64,000 nt of DNA from a virus (taxonomy: Duplodnaviria > Caudoviricetes). The stretch spans positions 24,641 to 88,640 of IMG/VR virus record IMGVR_UViG_3300020045_015293; one strand, written 5' to 3'. The notes below the pieces were generated by a model. The model saw only the letters and a program-made list of their open reading frames with translations, did no database searches and was not told the DNA's origin. The position numbers and the translations under genes are program-made. Numbering within the stretch: position 1 is the stretch's first letter; the number at the start of each line of letters is the position of its first letter. Shown here piece after piece: positions 17,437 through 35,592 of this stretch.

Positions 17437-17511
17437 CGGTGACTAAGCTAATCTGGTGAAAGCGTATCCCTGAAGAGGATAAGAGTTCGGGTCGGAACCG
17501 AGAGTCACTGC
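17437..17511 (+). tRNA. trnF: tRNA-Phe(GAA), atypical T-loop
   Basis: Acceptor cggtgac/gtcactg; anticodon arm tatcc-ctgaaga-ggata. Confidence 0.75.
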
Positions 17512-19469: not shown

Positions 19470-19640
19470 ATGGCTAAAAAAGAAGGCGGTGGTAAAGGTA
19501 AAAAAGGTAATAAAAAATACGGCCGCGAAATTAAAAAAAGATCAAATAGAGGAAGTACAATTTCTTTATTTGTTCGCAACAGAATTACTGCTGAAGAATA
19601 TTTTAGAAAAGCAGGATTATCTCTAAAAAGAGATAAATAA
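19470..19640 (+). CDS. small basic protein (56 aa, MAKKEGGGKGKKGNKKYGR...), not in the ORF track
   Basis: Read directly; K/G/R-rich; lies immediately before the Y RNA-like element. Confidence 0.6.
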   Translation: MAKKEGGGKGKKGNKKYGREIKKRSNRGSTISLFVRNRITAEEYFRKAGLSLKRDK

Positions 19641-19724
19641 ACAGGCTCCGGAAGTCGTGAGTTCGAGTCTCACCTTGGCCCGAAAGGGCTGAGTAGCTCA
19701 GTTGGTAGAGCGCCGGACTAGGTT
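19639..19724 (+). ncRNA. yrlA: YrlA-type bacterial Y RNA / circularly permuted tRNA mimic
   Basis: Order: tccgg, T-arm gtgag-ttcgagt-ctcac, acceptor-like hairpin cttggcc-cgaaag-ggctgag, D-arm gctc-agttggta-gagc, ccgga; Ro60 gene at 32798. Confidence 0.75.
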
Positions 19725-19788
19725 ATCAATTAACGAGGACGTTAGTGCACGCCTACAATGCAGTAATGCAAGAGGATAACCGCAAATT

Positions 19789-20044: not shown

Positions 20045-20118
20045 CGAGGTAACGCATAAATGATGGTGCACCTGCCTTCCAAGTAGGAATAGAGCCGGTT
20101 TGATCCCGGTTACCTTGA
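20045..20118 (+). tRNA. trnG: tRNA-Gly(TCC)
   Basis: cctgc-cttccaa-gtagg. Confidence 0.8.
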
Positions 20119-20224: not shown

Positions 20225-20297
20225 GCGAATATAGCACAATGGCTCAGTGTACCGGCTTGCCAAGTCGGTGATGACAGTTCGAATCTGTTTATTCGCT
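20225..20297 (+). tRNA. trnG: tRNA-Gly(GCC)
   Basis: ccggc-ttgccaa-gtcgg; U73. Confidence 0.9.
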
Positions 20298-20358
20298 CAT
20301 AAATAAAAAATTATGATTATTCTTTCTGGTTGATGTCTTGACTCTGTAAAAAGAATCA

Positions 20359-20836: not shown

Positions 20837-21028
20837 AAATAAAAAATGAGCTATCGCTATATTAATATAGAGGAAACTCAGGACTCCGTTGTTTAATTTG
20901 GAAGACGAAAGTCGTTATACCAAAGAGGGAGAAACTTAAAACAGTCTATATGGATGAACAACATGGACAAGGTAAAGGATTAGACAAATGATAGCATAAA
21001 ACAGAAACCTGGTTACTATTTTTTATTT
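20837..21028 (+). ncRNA. rnpB: RNase P RNA, minimal (~190 nt)
   Basis: CR-I-like gaggaaactcagg, CR-V-like acagaaacctggtt forming P4 with bulged U; P1 aaataaaaaat/attttttattt; P2 ctatc/gatag; ggtaaa and tagacaaatga segments. Confidence 0.85.
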
Positions 21029-21030
21029 TA

Positions 21031-21103
21031 TCCCGCTATGGTGAAATGATATCACTTCAGTTTGTGGATCTGAAATTATAAGTTTGAATCTTATTAGTGG
21101 GAC
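21031..21103 (+). tRNA. trnH: tRNA-His(GTG)
   Basis: Loop ttgtgga; C73. Confidence 0.8.
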
Positions 21104-21207: not shown

Positions 21208-21286
21208 TGGATAGTACCGAGCCATCCTGATAAGATGGATAATCGTAGCGGTGTTGTAAACGTGGGTTCAAATCCCTCCTATCCAA
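21208..21286 (+). tRNA. atypical tRNA-Ile(GAT) lacking a D-arm, with long variable region
   Basis: Acceptor tggatag/ctatcca; ccatc-ctgataa-gatgg; only 7 nt between acceptor and anticodon stems. Confidence 0.6.
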
Positions 21287-23685: not shown

Positions 23686-23757
23686 GGACTGGTAACTTAA
23701 AGGCAAAGTAGCATCCTGTTAAGATGAAGAGTGTGGTATCGTGATCCACCCAGTCCG
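23686..23757 (+). tRNA. trnN: tRNA-Asn(GTT)
   Basis: Loop ctgttaa; G73. Confidence 0.8.
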
Positions 23758-27388: not shown

Positions 27389-27522
27389 CAAAGAAATTAA
27401 TATAAGTTTTATGACCCCCCTGGTTACAAACAAAATATTAGTTTCTTTACCGGTTACGGGTTTATTTTGTTGGTTTTTATCCCGTAAAAATTAAAAGAAA
27501 AACCAATAGAATTAAACCCGAT

Positions 27523-27800
27523 GTTAAACGCTGTTATAAAATTTTAGCGATGAAAGTTAAATATGTGAAATTACAAAGCGGAGAGGTAATAATGTTTCCT
27601 CCCGTTATTGAACACGATACATTCAAATACCTGAACCCAATAACGGCAGGATTTTGTTGCATCGGAAATGATAAAGTAGAGTGCTTTGGAGAAAGTTACT
27701 CACTCAAATTGAAGGCAGACGAAAAGCAAGATACATTAGATGCAACAAAACATTATTTTGGAATAGAGGCGATGATAAAAATTTTATAATTGCGTTTAAC
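27523..27800 (+). mobile_element. integron-like gene cassette (GTTRRRY ... ORF ... RYYYAAC)
   Basis: GTTAAAC 27523-27529 and GTTTAAC 27794-27800 within 23-bp imperfect inverted repeats around ORF 27550-27789. Confidence 0.55.
27550..27789 (+). CDS. hypothetical cassette protein
   Basis: KYV......IMFP..I.H...; AGFC; higher GC than neighbours. Confidence 0.6.
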   Translation: MKVKYVKLQSGEVIMFPPVIEHDTFKYLNPITAGFCCIGNDKVECFGESYSLKLKADEKQDTLDATKHYFGIEAMIKIL

Positions 27801-27801
27801 A

Positions 27802-27872
27802 GCGTCATTGGTATATTGACTGTGCCTTCGTCTCTAAAGCGAAAGAAAGGAGTTTAATTCTCTTATGACGCT
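27802..27872 (+). tRNA. amber suppressor tRNA (anticodon CTA)
   Basis: Acceptor gcgtcat/atgacgc+T; D gtat/gtgc; ttcgt-ctCTAaa-gcgaa; T-arm aggag-tttaatt-ctctt. Confidence 0.85.
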
Positions 27873-28013
27873 CTAAAATAAATTAAAAGTGTTTACCTTT
27901 ATTGTAATATGTATAGCAATAATGGAATTAATAAGGATGACACTAAAATCAATTTTTAAAAAATGAAGCGAAAACAGTAAGCTACCCTCAAGCTAAAATG
28001 AGGGATTAAGTAT

Positions 28014-28085
28014 GCCCTCGTAGCAAACAGGTGTAGGCAACAGACTTTTAATCTGTGAGGTTTGGATCGTTACCAAACGGGGGTA
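28014..28085 (+). tRNA. trnK: tRNA-Lys(TTT)
   Basis: acaga-cttttaa-tctgt. Confidence 0.85.
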
Positions 28086-28134
28086 CTGTTAAAAAATTTT
28101 TTATTTTCCAAAACTTTATATATACCTTTATATA

Positions 28135-28410
28135 ATGAAAATATATTCTAAAAGTCAATTATTTTCTAAAAATAAGGAATGGTATTGGAAAATGAACAAT
28201 GAAAATGAAGTAAGAAATATTTTAAATTATTTAGCACAAAATGGATTTATTTGGAATGGTTCAAAATGTAAAGCTAATGAATTACATAAAGTATTTGAAT
28301 TTAATTATCCTTGGTATTTAGAATATAGTGATGGTACTTTGTCATATAATATAGGAGGAGAAATTAGATCAACTCAGAGTCGTATTCATCATATTCATTT
28401 GAATTTTTAA
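28135..28410 (+). CDS. hypothetical protein
   Basis: ORF after CCAAA promoter at 28108. Confidence 0.55.
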   Translation: MKIYSKSQLFSKNKEWYWKMNNENEVRNILNYLAQNGFIWNGSKCKANELHKVFEFNYPWYLEYSDGTLSYNIGGEIRSTQSRIHHIHLNF

Positions 28411-28578
28411 TAATATGAAAAAACATGTAGCATCAACAATGATATATAAAGGTGAAATAACACAAGCAATAACTTGGTTAAATAAATTACCTAGAGAATA
28501 TCCAGTGTGGAGATTAAAAGGTATAGAAAAAGGAGATATATTAGTTTGGACTACTGAAAATGGATTAAAAATTTGGAA

Positions 28579-29052
28579 ATGAAAAAATTAGAAATTGAAC
28601 GTCGTTTTTTATTAAAAAAATTACCTGATCTAACTAAACCACATAAATTATTTATAATAAAACAATATTATAATAAAACAGAAGGTGGGGTAATAAGATA
28701 TAGAGAATCCAGAGAGTATGCAAATTTTCCTAACAAGTATGAAAAAATAATTAAGTTAAAAGTATCAAAGGGAATAAATAATGAAGAAGATTTTGAAATT
28801 GATCAATTACAATTTTTCAATGAAATTCAACAAATAAAAAATTTAAAGTCAATTAAAAAACATCGAATAGTTTTTGAAGAAAATGGATTAAAATGGGAAG
28901 TTGATAGTTTCAATGATTTAAAATTAATAATTTGTGAAGTTGAATTAAAATCACTGAAACAAAAAATTCAAATTCCTGAACATATACAAAAAGTATTAAT
29001 TAAAGAAATAACTGGGGAATATGAATTTAGTAATTATAATTTAGCACAATGA
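28579..29052 (+). CDS. CYTH-domain protein (adenylate cyclase/triphosphatase-like)
   Basis: EIERRFL, I.Q.Y, K.R, WEVD.F, EVEL, Y.FSNY.LA motifs. Confidence 0.85.
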   Translation: MKKLEIERRFLLKKLPDLTKPHKLFIIKQYYNKTEGGVIRYRESREYANFPNKYEKIIKLKVSKGINNEEDFEIDQLQFFNEIQQIKNLKSIKKHRIVFEENGLKWEVDSFNDLKLIICEVELKSLKQKIQIPEHIQKVLIKEITGEYEFSNYNLAQ

Positions 29053-29546
29053 TTAAAAAAATAACAACATTAATATTATCAAGTTTTACATCTATATTAA
29101 TGCTAGCTAATTTTAAACCATTAAATGAATTAAGATTAAAATCTAAATTTTCAACACTATTGAATGTAAGTATTAGTGAAATAAAAAATTTAAATTTTTA
29201 TGAATTTTTAAATAGTTGGTTAGGCACAAGATACAAATATGCTGGTAATACAAAATATGGAGTTGATTGTTCAGGATTTACTCAAGAAATATTTAAAGCA
29301 ATTTATAATATTAATTTACCACGTACATCACGTGATCAATTTAAAGTAAGTAATAAAATTGATAAAAGTGAATTACAAGAAGGAGATTTGTTATTTTTTA
29401 AAACAAAAGGTAAATTTATATCTCATGTAGGAATATATTTACAAAACAATAAATTTATTCATGCATCAGTAAGTAATGGAGTAATAGTATCAGATTTAAA
29501 TTCACCTTATTATAGTTCTAAATTTTATAAAGCAGGTAGAATATGA
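29049..29546 (+). CDS. NlpC/P60 cell-wall peptidase (Spr-like)
   Basis: WLGTRYKYAG....GVDCSGF, LPRTS, GDLLFF, SHVGIY...FIHAS. Confidence 0.9.
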   Translation: MIKKITTLILSSFTSILMLANFKPLNELRLKSKFSTLLNVSISEIKNLNFYEFLNSWLGTRYKYAGNTKYGVDCSGFTQEIFKAIYNINLPRTSRDQFKVSNKIDKSELQEGDLLFFKTKGKFISHVGIYLQNNKFIHASVSNGVIVSDLNSPYYSSKFYKAGRI

Positions 29547-29715
29547 AACGTTTTGTAGCAATTAGATTAGTTTCTAATTTAAAAAATATTTGTAATAGAG
29601 AAAATGTTCATCATGGATCATATTTGATGAAAGGTAGTTATAAAAGATTTATGAAATTTCAAAAATAATTTTTATGAATAAGTTTTTTACTAAAGCATCA
29701 ATAAATTTAAATAAA

Positions 29716-30075
29716 ATGAATAACTAGAAATTAATTATTATAACCAGGAAAGATTTAACACCAGGTTACCAAGCTGTACAATCAACACATGCAGCAATCG
29801 ATTTTTGTTTTAAATACCCAGATATAGCCAAAGAATGGCATTAGGTATCAAATTACTTATGTCAAGTATCATGTGAAAATGAAGAACACTTAAGAAAATA
29901 TGTGTTAAAAGCTAAACAAAGAGGAATTGAATATATTGAATTTTATGAACCTGATATAAACAATGAGTTAACAGCTATTGCTTTAGAACCAGGTGAAAAA
30001 AGTAAAAAATTAATTTCAAACTTACCACTAATGTTAAAAGGATATAATAATGAAAGTTTGGATATCAAAAATTGA
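29716..30075 (+). CDS. Pth2-like peptidyl-tRNA hydrolase with two in-frame TAG codons (codons 4 and 43); absent from the ORF track
   Basis: MNN*KLIIITRKDLTPGYQAVQSTHAA...EWH*VSNYL...FYEPDINNELTAIALEP...NLPL; TAG at 29725 and 29842, TGA stop at 30073. Confidence 0.8.
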
Positions 30076-30232
30076 AACAGAAGATTGTGAAGAATATTAT
30101 TTAGGTTTTAATTCACAACCAACTGAAAACCAAGTAAAAAAAGAATTTTTCAAAGATCATGGAAATATTTATGAAGAAGAAGATTGGGGAGTTTGTATAT
30201 CACATGATATATTTGAAGTTGAAGTAATATGA
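30050..30232 (+). CDS. hypothetical acidic protein
   Basis: ORF. Confidence 0.5.
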   Translation: MKVWISKIETEDCEEYYLGFNSQPTENQVKKEFFKDHGNIYEEEDWGVCISHDIFEVEVI

Positions 30233-30575: not shown

Positions 30576-30809
30576 ATGAAAATATATCCTCCACTTGTAA
30601 TTAAAGCCTATGAATTTACTGATGGATGGAGCAATTGGGGTTATGGTTGGTTTGTATTGGGAATGAAACGTCCTTGTAAATGGCTTGGTAAAAATTTTAA
30701 ATATAATAATATTACTTATCATATTGATTTATGGAGTGATAATATTATTACTATATCAAGAGAAGAAAAAATAATTTTTCGTTTTCTAAAATTTATTATT
30801 CAAAAATGA
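30576..30809 (+). CDS. hypothetical protein
   Basis: ORF. Confidence 0.45.
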   Translation: MKIYPPLVIKAYEFTDGWSNWGYGWFVLGMKRPCKWLGKNFKYNNITYHIDLWSDNIITISREEKIIFRFLKFIIQK

Positions 30810-31360
30810 TCAAACTAAAAGATATATTATTAGAAAAAAAAGGGGATAAATATGAAACTGGAGCAGTTGTATTAAATGTTATTATTCCAAAACAATTGCT
30901 TCATTCCAAAATATCTAAAGAAGATTTATTTCAAGAAGAAGGAGATAGGACTTATGGTATTGAAGATGAACCTCATATAACTTTATTATTTGGATTACAT
31001 AGTGATGAAATAATAGATAATGATATTAAAAAATGTATTTCTGAATTTACATTTCCTGAGTTAATACTTCATAATGTTTCATTATTTAATAATGATAATT
31101 ATGATGTATTAAAATTTGATGTACTTGATAAAAGTAAAACATTAGTTAAATGTAATGTTGCTTTAAAACAGTTTCCATATAGCAATGATTATCCTGAATA
31201 CCATCCTCATTGTACTATAGCATATATTAAACCAGGATTGGGTGACAAATATGTTAAATTATTTAAAAAATTAAAATTTGTTGTAGAACCAGAATTATGT
31301 ATATATAGTAAACCTGATGGTTCAAAGCAAAAATTTGGAATTTCCAAAGTTCGTTTTTAA
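30806..31360 (+). CDS. 2H phosphoesterase, T4 gp57B/Acb1-like, with MIKLKDILLE N-terminal leader
   Basis: Two HxT motifs (EPHITLLFGLH, YHPHCTIAY). Confidence 0.8.
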   Translation: MIKLKDILLEKKGDKYETGAVVLNVIIPKQLLHSKISKEDLFQEEGDRTYGIEDEPHITLLFGLHSDEIIDNDIKKCISEFTFPELILHNVSLFNNDNYDVLKFDVLDKSKTLVKCNVALKQFPYSNDYPEYHPHCTIAYIKPGLGDKYVKLFKKLKFVVEPELCIYSKPDGSKQKFGISKVRF

Positions 31361-31381: not shown

Positions 31382-32044
31382 ATGGAACAAAACATTCAAG
31401 AAAAATATACAAATTTATTAAATGAATTATATCGTTCATTTGATTTTTTTAATGAATTTTTTTGTCAAGGAAAATTAAATAAACCAATTATTACTACACA
31501 AGGTGAAAAGCGTAAAGGTAAAACTTGGGGATGGTTTGGAAAAGATTTTTGGACTGAACATAGTGGTGAAGAACATAATAAATTAAATGAAATTAATTTA
31601 ACTGCTGAATCATTACATAGAGAACCAAATGCTGTTTTATGTACTTTATTGCATGAAATGGCTCATTTAAAAAATTCTCAAGAAGGTATTTTTGATTGTA
31701 CTACAACTCAATATCATAATAAAGAATTTAAGAAAACAGCTGAATTTTTTGGATTGATTGTTGAAAAGATGAAAGCAAGAGGTTGGGCAACAACTACATT
31801 AGGAGAAAAAGCATTAGGTGCTATTGAATTATTAAAACCTGATGTTTCATTATATAAAATTGTAAGAACACCCCCTTATAAATTAGCAAAAGATCCAACA
31901 GTAATTAATTTAAATGTGTCGTTGGATTATGAAGATAAAGTTGAATATTTAACTTCAAGATATGGTAAAAAACGTGAAATGACTGAAGCTGCAATTGATA
32001 TGTTATATCAACATGAAAAAAGTCCTAAACCAGAATATGTATAA
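31382..32044 (+). CDS. SprT-like zinc metalloprotease domain protein
   Basis: TLLHEMAH...H (YHNKEF). Confidence 0.8.
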   Translation: MEQNIQEKYTNLLNELYRSFDFFNEFFCQGKLNKPIITTQGEKRKGKTWGWFGKDFWTEHSGEEHNKLNEINLTAESLHREPNAVLCTLLHEMAHLKNSQEGIFDCTTTQYHNKEFKKTAEFFGLIVEKMKARGWATTTLGEKALGAIELLKPDVSLYKIVRTPPYKLAKDPTVINLNVSLDYEDKVEYLTSRYGKKREMTEAAIDMLYQHEKSPKPEYV

Positions 32045-32797: not shown

Positions 32798-34363
32798 ATG
32801 AAATACAACAAAAAATCAATGACTGCTGTATCAACAGTACAAACACATCAAGGTGGAATGGGTTTCCAACTTGAACCAAAATTAGAATTAATTGCATTAC
32901 TTGCTTCAGGTATTGAAAACAAGTATTATGAAAAAGAATCTGAACGTGAACAACGTTTAAATAAATTAGTATCAGAAATAGCTGTGAAAGATAAAAATTT
33001 TGTAGCTAAAGCATTAATATATGCTCGTACTAAAATGGGTCAACGTTCTGTTACTCATATAGGAGCAGTTAATTTAGCTAAATTTTTAAGTGGTGATGGA
33101 TTAGGTTCTCGTTTTTTCTCAAAACGTGATAGAAAAGAAAATAAAGGAGGAATAGTATTCCGTTTAGATGATATGCTTGAAATAGCAGCATGTTATCAAG
33201 CTAAAAATCCAAATACAAAAACAAGAAAAAATGGATCACCTTCAATGACATTGCCAAATTCTATTAAAAAAGGATTTAAATCAGCTTTAGAAGCAGCTGA
33301 TGAATATGAATTAGCTAAATATCAAGGTAAAACAAGAGACATATCATTAGTTGATATTTGTAATTTGGTTCATCCTAAGCCATCTAAAAAAATGGTACCA
33401 GTATTTAAAAAATTGATGAATGGTGAATTAAAACAATTTAATACTGTTGAAGATAAAAACTCTGCTGCTGGGCAAGAAGTGGCTGCAGCGATTGCAAGTG
33501 GAGAAATGAGTGCAACTGAAGCTAAAGTTGCTTTACAAGAAGCAAAAGAAGAAAATTATGCTGAACTAATAAGAAATAAAAAAATTGGTTATTTAGCATT
33601 ATTACGTAATTTACGTAATATTTTAAAAAATACCACTGATAAAACACTTATTAATGATGCTTGTGATTTATTAACAGATGCTAAATTTGTAAGAAATTCA
33701 TTAGTGTTTCCTCACCAAATTGATATAGCATTAGAAATAATGTTATCTGAATTTGGAGTTTCAAAAATGGGTAAATTTGCTACTGCTTTGAATACAGCAT
33801 ATGAATTAGCAATTCCAAATTTAACTGAATTATTTACTTCAGGTAAAACTGCAGTTGTATTTGATTCTTCAGGTTCAATGAGTGCATCTATTATGTTAAG
33901 TAATAAAAGTAGAGGTAGCGAAGCTGCTTTAGATAAAGCTGTTTTAATAGCTGCTACTTTAGCTAAAGGTATAGGTGCTGATGTTTATACATTTGCAAAT
34001 AATTGTCATTCTATTTCTTATAATCCAGGTGATACTGTTAATACTTTGAAGAAACATTTTAAATCTAGTGCTCATGCTGGAGGAGGAACATATTTTGGTT
34101 CAATATTCCAAGTTTTAGGAACTAAATATGATCGTGTATTTGTTATTTCAGATGAACAAGGTGCTGATTCATTAGAAAGAAGTTCATATTCAAATACTCA
34201 TATTTACTCTATAAATTTATGTGGTTATGGAACTACAATGTTTAAACCAGGTAATAAAGTTTATAGATTATTTGGATATGGAGCTGATATATATGAATTA
34301 ATTAAAAAAGTAGAAGTAGATCCTAAAGCAATATTAGCTGAAATTGAAGCAATTCAAATATAA
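32798..34363 (+). CDS. rsr: Ro60/TROVE-domain RNA-binding protein with C-terminal vWA domain
   Basis: THQGGMGF, R...G.RS, YEL.KY, LVHPKP, ALLRNLRN, FDSSGSM MIDAS, GGGT, VISDEQ. Confidence 0.92.
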   Translation: MKYNKKSMTAVSTVQTHQGGMGFQLEPKLELIALLASGIENKYYEKESEREQRLNKLVSEIAVKDKNFVAKALIYARTKMGQRSVTHIGAVNLAKFLSGDGLGSRFFSKRDRKENKGGIVFRLDDMLEIAACYQAKNPNTKTRKNGSPSMTLPNSIKKGFKSALEAADEYELAKYQGKTRDISLVDICNLVHPKPSKKMVPVFKKLMNGELKQFNTVEDKNSAAGQEVAAAIASGEMSATEAKVALQEAKEENYAELIRNKKIGYLALLRNLRNILKNTTDKTLINDACDLLTDAKFVRNSLVFPHQIDIALEIMLSEFGVSKMGKFATALNTAYELAIPNLTELFTSGKTAVVFDSSGSMSASIMLSNKSRGSEAALDKAVLIAATLAKGIGADVYTFANNCHSISYNPGDTVNTLKKHFKSSAHAGGGTYFGSIFQVLGTKYDRVFVISDEQGADSLERSSYSNTHIYSINLCGYGTTMFKPGNKVYRLFGYGADIYELIKKVEVDPKAILAEIEAIQI

Positions 34364-35112: not shown

Positions 35113-35592
35113 ATGAATAAAATATTTAAAACATTAGGAACAAGAGAAGAAGTTGACTTAATACCATATATTACAGAATATTTAATTAAATATCCAGAAA
35201 CTGAAATATTAATTGGTTGTGATTCTCAAAATAGAAAACGCAATACTGTATATGCAACTTGTGTAGTATTATATAGGCCCCAAAAAGGTGGTCACGTATT
35301 ATATGCACGTCAAGAATTACCAAGAGTACGTGTTATTAAAGGTGAATTTGATAAAATGCGTTTATTAAATGAAACTTGGTTTTCAGTAGAAGTAGCTGAA
35401 GCAATTAGAGAAGGTGTTGGTAGAAGGGCAACATGGATTGATATTGATATAAACAATGACAAAAAATGGAAAAGTAATACTGTATTAGCAGAAGCTTTAG
35501 GTTTAGTAACTGCATATGGATATTCACCAAGGTATAAAAATTCTCAATTTACACCTGTTGTAACATATTGTTGCGACAACTTAGTAAAGTAG
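35113..35592 (+). CDS. RNase H-like YkuK/DUF458 family protein
   Basis: ILIGCDSQ, GGHVLY, RLLNE.W.SVE.A, IDIDIN motifs. Confidence 0.8.
   Translation: MNKIFKTLGTREEVDLIPYITEYLIKYPETEILIGCDSQNRKRNTVYATCVVLYRPQKGGHVLYARQELPRVRVIKGEFDKMRLLNETWFSVEVAEAIREGVGRRATWIDIDINNDKKWKSNTVLAEALGLVTAYGYSPRYKNSQFTPVVTYCCDNLVK

What the first reader, a model, noticed from the sequence alone, without database searches (positions are those of the whole stretch)
27802..27872. Amber suppressor tRNA in a standard-code phage, with Gly-like acceptor identity
Seen: complete cloverleaf, loop CU-CUA-AA, acceptor G1-C72, C2-G71, G3-C70 and U73. Established: these acceptor elements and U73 are identity elements of bacterial tRNA-Gly, which also needs C35/C36 (absent here); suppressors in recoded phages usually decode TAG as Gln. 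Inference: the charged amino acid is uncertain. The tRNA could selectively extend host TAG-ending proteins and a few phage ORFs (29716 Pth2-like, 22745 leader, 35113).
Basis: partly seen in the sequence, partly recalled or inferred. Interest (0 to 1): 0.7.

Follow-up and report, generated by a model that had tools for sequence, protein, structure and literature searches.

The report
Phage stop-reading tRNA unlocks neighbouring gene
This large phage carries a real tRNA that reads the UAG stop codon, and its clearest job is to let the ribosome read through two UAG codons placed inside a nearby tRNA-hydrolase-like gene, a lock-and-key pairing that recurs in dozens of distant phages and seems undescribed in the literature.

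Summary
Window 27802-27872 is a tRNA with anticodon CUA, acceptor pairs G1-C72, C2-G71, G3-C70 and U73 (ARAGORN; Rfam 42 bits).

The held DNA is an 88.6-kb fragment, about 49% of the genome. It reads well in the standard code: 153 genes, of which only 2 end in TAG. One gene breaks the rule. The Pth2-like gene at 29716-30075 has TAG at codons 4 and 43.

The same layout recurs widely. It is a short leader (Met, 1-3 further codons, then TAG) in front of a Pth2-like gene, with a tRNA(CUA) on the same strand.
- It occurs in 54 of 56 distinct IMG/VR loci, and 46-47 of these have the tRNA within 8 kb.
- It occurs in cultured phages: mycobacteriophages Alice and Myrna, GAP32, Serratia BF, Yersinia fHe-Yen9-04, Acinetobacter ME3, Tenacibaculum pT24.
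- One genome with TAA in the leader carries a tRNA(UUA) instead.

So the tRNA is most likely the key to an amber-gated gene, not a sign of genome-wide recoding.

The Gly-like acceptor is real and matches the phage's own tRNA-Gly. It is not conserved: look-alike tRNAs with the same acceptor stem have A73. The inserted amino acid is unknown.

This scan has noted the same cassette before on other DNA (297 notes, at least 196 genomes). I found no published description.

The parts
27802..27872 (+). tRNA with anticodon CUA (amber suppressor), 71 nt up to discriminator U73; CCA is not encoded
   Evidence: ARAGORN; Rfam RF00005 at 42.1 bits; cloverleaf minimum-free-energy fold; sequence read
27834..27836 (+). 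anticodon CTA inside loop CTCTAAA (27832-27838)
   Evidence: the same loop in 53 of 71 cassette tRNAs
29716..30075 (+). Pth2-like gene, 119 codons, readable only through two TAG codons; lies 1.85 kb downstream of the tRNA on the same strand
   Evidence: Pfam PTH2 E 5.6e-7 spanning the second TAG; 86 homologues; AlphaFold2 model pLDDT 91; Foldseek top hits are archaeal Pth2 and human Bit1, probability 1.0
29725..29727 (+). TAG at codon 4 (leader Met-Asn-Asn-TAG, followed by AAA)
   Evidence: a homologous short leader ending in TAG in 54 of 56 distinct IMG/VR loci and in cultured phages
29842..29844 (+). second in-frame TAG (codon 43) inside the Pth2 fold, at a variable surface position, followed by G
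   Evidence: extra internal TAGs also in L025, L043 and L131
35590..35601 (+). TAG stop of the RNase H-like gene (35113-35592), one of only two TAG-terminated genes in 88.6 kb; backed up by TAA two codons later

Best explanation
The tRNA is a working amber suppressor. Its conserved client is the Pth2-like (peptidyl-tRNA-hydrolase-fold) gene 1.85 kb downstream. That gene opens with Met-Asn-Asn-UAG and has a second UAG at codon 43. Without the tRNA, ribosomes stop after three residues. With it, they read on and make the 119-residue protein. The tRNA is therefore the key and the early UAG the lock of a translational gate that ties production of the enzyme to the presence and activity of the suppressor. 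Shown here: both parts are present, the pairing recurs widely, and the leader stop changes together with the anticodon in one genome. Inferred: the tRNA is expressed, charged by a host synthetase and used. The inserted residue probably does not matter, because the first UAG sits in the N-terminal tail and the second at a variable surface position. My ranking for this tRNA is Gly first (about 35-40%), then Gln or Lys by capture through U35. My best guess at the purpose is damage control. An active amber suppressor pushes ribosomes past UAG stops and raises the load of stalled or dropped-off peptidyl-tRNA. The phage then makes its hydrolase in proportion to suppressor activity. It also keeps its own genes almost free of TAG stops.
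For: (1) The tRNA is real. (2) In 88.6 kb, only one of 153 genes has internal TAGs. It has two of them and no TAA or TGA, although its other four Gln codons are CAA and TAA is the commonest stop-type trinucleotide in this genome. (3) The interrupted gene is a conserved, well-folding Pth2 homologue. (4) Of 56 distinct Pth2-like loci in IMG/VR, 55 have a short Met-started leader ending in a stop: TAG in 54 and TAA in 1. Another one has the TAG but no obvious ATG. A tRNA(CUA) lies within the held flank in 46-47 of the 56, always on the same strand, at a median distance of 879 bp. (5) Control: 12 related tRNA-rich loci with 235 tRNAs have neither the gene nor a CUA tRNA. Fisher p is about 4e-8 by locus and 7e-12 by tRNA. 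(6) The layout is present in cultured standard-code phages: Alice, Myrna, GAP32, Serratia BF, fHe-Yen9-04, ME3 and pT24. It also spans GC contents of 23-66%. (7) Covariation: the one TAA-leader locus (L107) lies in a 676-kb genome that carries a tRNA(UUA), and the search pattern found no CUA tRNA there. (8) The base after the leader stop is a purine in 54 of 55 loci, and after both window TAGs. From my own knowledge, a purine there is the context that favours suppression over release in E. coli. (9) TAG is strongly avoided as a stop: 2 of 153 genes against an 18.7% off-frame share, binomial p about 1e-11. (10) Background: nonsense suppression creates non-stop ribosomes, and short ORFs near a start provoke peptidyl-tRNA drop-off that Pth must clear (PMC8012679).
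Against: There is no expression, charging or protein evidence. No sequencing run could be listed. This exact tRNA has no close relative that would show it is conserved as a gene. The contig is about half a genome. Nine or ten of the 56 loci show no CUA tRNA in the flank held. Four of those flanks are cut short, and a narrow pattern search failed to find one in three further genomes. A second Pth2-like subfamily sits right beside tRNA(CUA) genes without any TAG in the gene (L133, L134, L136), so decoding the gene's own TAG cannot be the whole reason for the linkage. The family replaces the canonical catalytic Lys of Pth2 with Tyr or Gln, so its substrate is unknown. The damage-control rationale is conjecture. 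An earlier check within this scan priced the bold 'self-contained switch' reading at 20/100.
Confidence: 0.7

Rival explanations
1. Genome-wide code switch. The tRNA supports reassignment of TAG (code 15) in late genes that lie on the missing half of the genome. The Pth2-like gene is just the first recoded gene seen.
For: The contig is about 49% complete and both ends fall inside ORFs. TAG is almost absent as a stop. TAG depletion and acquisition of a suppressor tRNA are described as precursors of recoding in phages (bioRxiv 10.1101/2021.08.26.457843).
Against: Only 1 of 153 genes has an in-frame TAG. The contig already reaches a baseplate-like gene with no in-frame TAG. Reading TAG as sense hardly raises coding density. 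The same cassette sits in complete, cultured phages annotated with the standard code.
Confidence: 0.07
2. Host-directed read-through. The main role of the tRNA is to corrupt host or rival-phage proteins that end in UAG, or to counter a tRNA-targeting defence. The amber-gated Pth2-like gene is only a sensor or a clean-up helper.
For: The phage avoids TAG stops itself. Both of its TAG-terminated genes have a nearby in-frame TAA, 2 and 20 codons on. tRNA(CUA) genes sit beside Pth2-like genes even where the gene has no TAG. Several phages carry two different tRNA(CUA) genes. Relatives encode tmRNA.
Against: Nothing here shows an effect on host genes, and the host is unknown. TAG avoidance is also expected from 26% GC. 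It does not explain why the early TAG in the Pth2-like gene is kept in 54 of 56 loci unless combined with the gate model.
Confidence: 0.15
3. Start-stop mini-ORF. Met-X-X-TAG is a tiny upstream ORF, and the Pth2-like protein is made by re-initiation at the next codon (ATT in 35 of 55 loci, GTG in the mycobacteriophages). The tRNA(CUA) is unrelated.
For: The codon after the stop is ATT, ATA, GTN or ATG in most loci. GenBank annotators placed the start of Alice gp150 and Myrna gp84 on the GTG right after the TAG.
Against: In this window the next codon is AAA, with no start codon before the conserved strand. Internal TAGs inside the fold, here at codon 43 and also in L025, L043 and L131, cannot be bypassed by re-initiation. 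It explains neither the tight same-strand linkage with tRNA(CUA) nor the TAA/tRNA(UUA) case.
Confidence: 0.04
4. Decay. The tRNA is a mutated, useless copy and the Pth2-like gene is a pseudogene with two nonsense mutations.
For: The D and T loops are degenerate. No close homologue of this exact tRNA was found.
Against: Both lesions are TAG, in a genome where CAA outnumbers CAG by 735 to 57 and TAA is the commonest stop-type trinucleotide. There is no frameshift or other stop. The TAG leader is conserved across 54 distinct loci. Other tRNAs of this phage have the same degenerate loops.
Confidence: 0.03

Closest known systems
Phage-encoded suppressor tRNAs of stop-codon-recoded phages (TAG read as Gln, 'code 15': crAss-like and Lak phages; Borges et al. 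preprint 10.1101/2021.08.26.457843; PMC9523058; PMC11210395)
   Same: A phage-borne tRNA(CUA) in a low-GC phage that has almost no TAG stops. It is presumably charged by a host synthetase.
   Different: There, many genes (mostly late ones) carry in-frame TAG and the residue is Gln. Here one small gene of 153 does. The pairing also occurs in GC-rich, fully standard-code cultured phages, and the tRNAs show no common amino-acid identity.
Orphan 'tRNA-Sup' genes annotated in jumbo phages (XacN1, GAP32, Serratia BF, fHe-Yen9-04, ME3, pT24, mycobacteriophage cluster C)
   Same: The same kind of gene. In seven of these records I found the Pth2-like gene with an early TAG within 0.25-3.3 kb of the tRNA.
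   Different: The XacN1 authors looked only at extensions of TAG-terminated genes and found no target (PMC5852040). In XacN1 the Pth2 domain is fused to a longer protein and has no TAG.
prfB (release factor 2) autoregulation through an early in-frame UGA
   Same: An early in-frame stop codon in a gene of the translation machinery, whose fate depends on the balance between termination and an alternative decoding event.
   Different: prfB uses a +1 frameshift and senses its own product. Here a separate tRNA decodes the stop, and feedback by the Pth2-like protein is untested.
Lambda bar minigenes and peptidyl-tRNA hydrolase
   Same: A two- or three-codon ORF followed by a stop, in a phage, functionally tied to Pth through peptidyl-tRNA drop-off (PMC8012679).
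   Different: bar minigenes end there and are toxic when Pth is low. Here the stop is followed in frame by the hydrolase-like gene itself.
E. coli amber suppressors derived from tRNA-Gly (McClain et al. 1991, as summarised in PMC9976931)
   Same: G1-C72, C2-G71, G3-C70 and U73 combined with a CUA anticodon.
   Different: The body of this tRNA is not recognisably tRNA-Gly. The tRNAs that share its acceptor stem and D arm have A73. C35/C36 are missing.

Membership tests
tRNA (Rfam RF00005) | Cloverleaf scoring above the curated gathering score | tested here: met
   42.1 bits against a gathering score of 29, full model 1-71; ARAGORN; cloverleaf minimum-free-energy fold
Amber suppressor tRNA | Anticodon CUA in a 7-nt loop with U33 and a purine at 37 | tested here: met
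   Loop C32 U33 C34 U35 A36 A37 A38 at 27832-27838
Amber suppressor tRNA | It is expressed, aminoacylated and reads UAG in vivo | not testable with these tools
   No sequencing run was listed. The only support is indirect: conserved in-frame TAG clients.
Bacterial tRNA-Gly identity set | G1-C72, C2-G71, G3-C70 and discriminator U73 | tested here: met
   Read from the sequence. Identical to the phage's own tRNA-Gly(GCC) at 20225-20298. The identity rules are as given in PMC9976931.
Bacterial tRNA-Gly identity set | C35 and C36 in the anticodon | tested here: not met
   U35 and A36
tRNA-Gln / supE-type suppressor | Weak 1-72 pair (U1-A72), G73, G10, U35 | tested here: not met
   G1-C72 and U73 are present instead. 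Only G10 and U35 fit (rules in PMC9976931). Some other cassette tRNAs do look Gln-like, with U1-A72 and G73.
tRNA-Pyl | Six-bp anticodon stem, 3-nt variable loop, G73, and a PylS synthetase in the genome | tested here: not met
   Five-bp stem, 4-nt variable loop and U73. No tRNA-synt_2d match in the contig, though this is half a genome. The list of tRNA-Pyl features is from my own knowledge.
Stop-codon-recoded (code 15) phage | Many genes with in-frame TAG; coding density rises when TAG is read as sense | tested here: not met
   One of 153 genes has internal TAG. Coverage rises only from 0.755 to 0.777. This applies to the 49% of the genome that is held.
PTH2 family (Pfam PF01981), for the client gene | Sequence and fold of archaeal/eukaryotic peptidyl-tRNA hydrolase 2 | tested here: met
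   Pfam 30.2 bits against a cut-off of 23. Profile against PDB Pth2 chains, E 2e-7. Foldseek TM 0.72-0.79, normalised to the target.
PTH2 family (Pfam PF01981), for the client gene | Canonical catalytic Lys of the Gly-Lys motif and the Asp of Asp-Ala-Gly | tested here: inconclusive
   The Lys position is Tyr or Gln (Pro-Gly-Tyr-Gln). An invariant Glu-Pro-Asp aligns with the Asp region. Activity is untested.
Amber-gated Pth2-like + suppressor tRNA cassette (defined in this scan) | Met, 1-3 further codons, then TAG, followed in frame by the conserved Pth2-like strand, with a same-strand tRNA(CUA) within a few kb | tested here: met
   Met-Asn-Asn-TAG at 29716-29727; tRNA 1.85 kb upstream on the same strand; the family pattern is shown

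The most novel reading that the evidence does not exclude
The tRNA and the Pth2-like enzyme form a self-regulating pair. The enzyme acts on the suppressor's own aminoacyl or short peptidyl form, so the UAG at codon 3-4 works as a feedback sensor, much as the in-frame UGA does for RF2. This sets a controlled level of UAG read-through in the infected cell. The phage, itself nearly free of TAG stops, uses that read-through to corrupt host or rival-phage proteins or to blunt a translation-targeting defence. The Gly-like acceptor here (U73 plus G71) is also the pair of nucleotides that specifies Gly-tRNA acetylation by the TacT toxin (PMC9976931). That hints at a link to toxins whose products Pth enzymes detoxify.
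Probability: 0.2. Interest if true: 0.9.

Novelty: new variant of a known kind. Interest (0 to 1): 0.7.

Why it matters
Suppressor tRNAs have been annotated for years in standard-code phages with no known target. The XacN1 authors said so explicitly. A conserved client gene gives these tRNAs a concrete, testable job in phages that grow on laboratory strains.

It also exposes systematic mis-annotation. In GenBank records the gene is given a start after the TAG, split in two, or missing altogether, and one suppressor is labelled tRNA-Ser.

It offers a natural example of gene-specific stop-codon gating. Such a gate could be a stepping stone towards full TAG reassignment. It could also serve as a ready-made orthogonal expression switch.

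For this window, it replaces a vague 'may extend TAG-ending proteins' with a specific gene and two specific codons.

Tried and rejected
1. I first took the Gln aligned with the first TAG in 'full-length' database homologues as evidence that TAG is read as Gln. This is circular. For P0010 the database protein translates from its DNA only 'with_TAG=Q', meaning the gene caller had read TAG as Q. I dropped it.
2. Sequencing runs for 27500-30200: none was listed, so I could not check reads over the anticodon or test expression.
3. Extending the contig through an exact-protein look-up of the last complete gene found nothing on record.
4. An exact 17-mer of the anticodon arm had 0 hits in viral contigs.
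5. I looked for a parent of the tRNA among 256 tRNAs of the window and its relatives. No clear parent emerged; the best was 49 identical positions.
6. Relatives found through the flanking ORFs gave one locus, which has neither the tRNA nor the Pth2-like gene. The other ORF had no relative.
7. The promoter and terminator scan around the tRNA gave fewer sites than shuffled sequence. No signal.
8. I looked for a second early-TAG leader ORF in this genome, as earlier notes report elsewhere. The five other ATG-(1-3 codons)-TAG sites on the + strand lie off-frame inside other genes or ahead of short, unsupported frames.
9. A narrow pattern search for CUA tRNAs in LR745206, LR756504 and a 362-kb IMG/VR record that have the TAG leader but no nearby suppressor returned no tRNA. 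The pattern misses atypical loops, so this settles nothing.
10. No release factor, Glu/Gln-, class IIa- or Pyl/Phe-type synthetase domains were found in the contig, which is half a genome.

Full report
**1. The observation**

ARAGORN finds 21 tRNAs in the window, all on the + strand. One lies at 27802-27873 with anticodon cta. Rfam's tRNA model matches 27802-27872 at 42.1 bits (E 3.4e-6), mid-range among 23 tRNA matches of 34-64 bits in the same 14.5 kb.

Read from the sequence:
- The acceptor stem is GCGUCAU/AUGACGC, giving G1-C72, C2-G71 and G3-C70.
- The discriminator is U at 27872.
- The anticodon loop is CUCUAAA, with CUA at 27834-27836.
- The anticodon and T stems are 5 bp each, and the variable loop is 4 nt.

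The minimum-free-energy fold is a cloverleaf (-20.3 kcal/mol, z -2.5). The D loop lacks GG and the T loop is UUUAAUU. Canonical tRNAs of this phage show the same degeneracy.

**2. The genome**

The window is part of one 88,640-bp IMG/VR virus record. The record is classed as linear, and CheckV estimates it at 49% complete. GC is 26%, and all genes lie on the + strand. Both contig ends fall inside ORFs, and the 3' end enters a baseplate-like gene.

Recognisable genes include a family-B DNA polymerase, GroES and GroEL, glycosyltransferases and a Ro60-like protein. Relatives found through the Ro60-like protein sit on contigs of up to 434 kb. This is therefore a fragment of a large phage.

Under the standard code, 153 genes cover 86% of the DNA. 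Their stops are TAA 113, TGA 38 and TAG 2. TAG makes up 18.7% of off-frame stop trinucleotides, so its rarity as a stop gives a binomial p of about 1e-11. Reading TAG as sense barely raises coding coverage, from 0.755 to 0.777.

**3. The one exception**

I listed every frame that stays open when TAG is read through. Only one real gene has internal TAGs: 29716-30075. It begins Met-Asn-Asn-TAG-Lys-Leu-Ile-Ile-Ile-Thr-Arg-Lys-Asp-Leu and has a second TAG at codon 43.
- Pfam PTH2 matches across the second TAG (E 5.6e-7).
- The database holds 86 homologues.
- An AlphaFold2 model built from the alignment has pLDDT 91.
- Its best structural matches are archaeal Pth2 enzymes and human Bit1 (probability 1.0, TM 0.72-0.79).
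- The family profile matches Pth2 chains in the PDB at E 2e-7, but the canonical catalytic Lys is Tyr or Gln in this family.

The gene's other four Gln codons are CAA. Genome-wide, CAA outnumbers CAG by 735 to 57. Two random nonsense hits that both produce TAG would therefore be unlikely.

**4. A trap**

Many homologues appear to have Gln where the window has its first TAG. When I fetched the DNA of one of them, the protein translated only 'with_TAG=Q'. Its third codon is TAG, and a tRNA(CUA) lies 620 bp downstream. The 'Q' is the gene caller's reading of TAG, so it says nothing about the amino acid.

Homologues whose database proteins look cut short at the N terminus also turned out to have ATG, one or two further codons, then TAG upstream of the called start. 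tRNA(CUA) genes lay nearby wherever flanking DNA was available.

**5. How general it is**

*Cultured and named phages (tblastn; regions; analysis):*
- Mycobacteriophage Alice has ATG-TAG-GTG. GenBank places the start on the GTG. An annotated 'tRNA-suppressor (cta)' lies 250 bp downstream.
- Myrna has TAG-GTG, and a CUA tRNA that is annotated as tRNA-Ser.
- Tenacibaculum phage pT24 has Met-Lys-TAG.
- Acinetobacter phage ME3 has Met-Thr-TAG, and the gene is annotated as two CDS.
- Cronobacter phage GAP32, Serratia phage BF and Yersinia phage fHe-Yen9-04 each have Met, two further codons, then TAG. In BF and fHe-Yen9-04 no CDS is annotated on the gene; in GAP32 the CDS covers only its downstream part.
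- All seven have a tRNA(CUA) within 0.25-3.3 kb.
- Several uncultured huge phages of 460-735 kb show the same leader.
- RaK2, XacN1 and Stenotrophomonas phage CM1 have the domain without a TAG. In the last two it is fused to a longer protein.

*Survey of IMG/VR (80 loci, 56 distinct sequences):*
- 55 of 56 have a short Met-started leader ending in a stop: TAG in 54 and TAA in 1. The remaining locus has the TAG but no obvious ATG.
- Counting the Met, the leader before the stop is 2 codons long in 30 loci, 3 in 12 and 4 in 9.
- The next codon is ATT in 35 of 55, and the next base is a purine in 54 of 55.
- A tRNA(CUA) lies in the held flank in 46-47 of 56. All 54 such tRNAs are on the same strand as the gene, at a median distance of 879 bp.
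- Four of the loci without one have truncated flanks.

*Control:* the 12 Ro60-linked relatives, with 235 tRNAs, have neither the gene nor a CUA tRNA. Fisher p is 4e-8 by locus.

*Covariation:* the genome holding the single TAA-leader locus (L107, 676 kb) has a tRNA(UUA), and the CUA pattern found nothing there. Lak-B4 shows a possible second case: Met-Asn-Ile-TAA-ATT with a tRNA(UUA) 0.6 kb upstream. An in-frame ATG after the TAA makes that case ambiguous.

**6. Which amino acid?**

The 71 distinct tRNA(CUA) genes beside these Pth2-like genes have unrelated acceptor stems. Their discriminators are A (49), G (11) and U (11). Some look Gln-like (U1-A72 with G73). The enterobacterial ones resemble tRNA-Lys, by my own comparison. 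Several phages carry two different ones. The inserted residue therefore seems free to vary. This fits a UAG placed in the N-terminal tail, and a second one in this window at a site where homologues have K, N, Q, S, T, E, D, R or A.

For this tRNA, the acceptor set equals that of the phage's own tRNA-Gly(GCC) and the bacterial Gly identity set. It lacks C35/C36 (PMC9976931). GlnRS and LysRS often capture amber suppressors through U35, but they prefer G73 with a weak 1-72 pair and A73 respectively. Neither holds here. Gly is my first guess, weakly held.

A metagenome scan for the same acceptor stem plus loop returned 9 true tRNA(CUA) genes. Five of them lie next to Pth2-like genes of a second subfamily. 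Three or four share this tRNA's D arm, and all nine have A73. Stem pairs outside the acceptor show compensatory changes (8 pairs). The acceptor identity is by construction of the search. U73 is therefore a private change of this tRNA, not a family trait. The contig encodes no synthetase or release factor of the types tested.

**7. Mechanism**

*Shown:* the lock (early UAG), the key (tRNA-CUA), their linkage, and one case of stop/anticodon covariation.

*Inferred:* read-through by the tRNA is required to make the enzyme. An early position makes failure cheap, since the product is only a tripeptide. From my own knowledge of minigene work, it also favours the tRNA over RF1, because release on very short peptides is poor. 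The purine after the stop fits that reading.

*Purpose, as conjecture:* suppression creates non-stop ribosomes, and short peptidyl-tRNAs drop off and must be hydrolysed (PMC8012679). Tying hydrolase output to suppressor activity would be a feed-forward safeguard.

In the second subfamily the tRNA sits beside Pth2-like genes that have no TAG (L133, L134, L136). One member has an internal TAG (L131). This suggests the partnership goes deeper than decoding the gene's own stop, and it keeps a feedback model open.

**8. Prior knowledge**

Five literature searches found no paper that links a phage suppressor tRNA to a Pth gene; a sixth found no report of a natural in-frame amber client of a phage-encoded suppressor. 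[quoted passage not shown] Work on recoded phages treats suppressors as agents of genome-wide recoding.

Within this scan the cassette has been noted many times on other DNA: 297 notes in at least 196 genomes. Follow-up agents reached the same reading. A later check gave 85/100 for the observation and 20/100 for the boldest reading.

**9. Verdict**

The tRNA is real and almost certainly functional. It is best read as the key of an amber-gated Pth2-like gene in a phage that otherwise uses the standard code, as far as the half-genome shows. The Gly-like acceptor is a true but idiosyncratic feature, and the amino acid remains open.

Noticed in passing
window 20838-21031 (+): A short RNA matches bacterial RNase P class A across the whole model in only 194 nt (48 bits, below the gathering score of 100, E 1.8e-12). 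It may be a minimal phage RNase P RNA sitting inside the tRNA array.
   Followed up: no
window 19630-19732 (+) and 32798-34363 (+): A YrlA-like Y RNA match (40.7 bits, below the gathering score of 69) and a 521-aa Ro60/TROVE-like protein (phrog_850). The relative L017 has the same Ro60-like gene next to its Pth2-like gene.
   Followed up: partly
window 17438-17510, 20045-20118, 21208-21286, 23686-23757 (+): Four further tRNA matches by Rfam (34-44 bits) that ARAGORN does not call. They may supply the missing Phe, Tyr, Asn or Met.
   Followed up: no
L031 (Alice, NC_028986), L028 (Myrna, NC_011273), L034 (ME3), L036 (Serratia BF), L033 (fHe-Yen9-04), L035 (GAP32): The GenBank annotation of the Pth2-like gene is systematically off. 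The start is placed on the GTG after the TAG (Alice, Myrna), the gene is split into two CDS (ME3), no CDS is annotated on it (BF, fHe-Yen9-04), or the CDS covers only its downstream part (GAP32). Myrna's CUA tRNA is labelled tRNA-Ser.
   Followed up: yes
L107 (IMG/VR, 676-kb record) with L120:1485-1558; L029 (Lak-B4): Ochre variants of the cassette. L107 has the leader Met-Lys-Glu-Thr-TAA-ATT and a tRNA(UUA) elsewhere in the genome. Lak-B4 has Met-Asn-Ile-TAA-ATT with a tRNA(UUA) 0.6 kb upstream, but this case is ambiguous because an ATG follows.
   Followed up: partly
L039-L118 (IMG/VR survey loci): The codon right after the leader TAG is ATT in 35 of 55 distinct loci, far more uniform than the leader itself. 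The reason is unknown: suppression context, a required N-terminal Ile, or a near-cognate start.
   Followed up: no
L062, L066, L098, L110, L025, L068, L083, L093, L100, L019: Many phages carry two different tRNA(CUA) genes near the gated gene, often one Gln-like (U1-A72, G73) and one with A73. This may be insurance for charging in different hosts.
   Followed up: no
L131, L133, L134, L136, L142 (metagenome contigs): A second, distant Pth2-like subfamily (about 29-33% identity) lies 50-180 bp from tRNA(CUA) genes that share the window tRNA's acceptor stem. Most of these genes have no TAG. L131 has one internal TAG. L134 and L142 have an ATG-TAG mini-ORF upstream in the same frame.
   Followed up: partly
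window 30806-31360 (+), 29049-29546 (+), 31382-32044 (+): Around the cassette lie a 2H phosphoesterase (2'-5' RNA ligase superfamily, with a weak Acb1-like match), an NlpC/P60 peptidase and a SprT-like protein. HNH endonucleases are scattered among the tRNAs.
   Followed up: no
L001:5300-7234 (G000 upstream of the window): The phage encodes a GroES-like and a full GroEL-like chaperonin (phrog_5725, E 4.5e-156).
   Followed up: no
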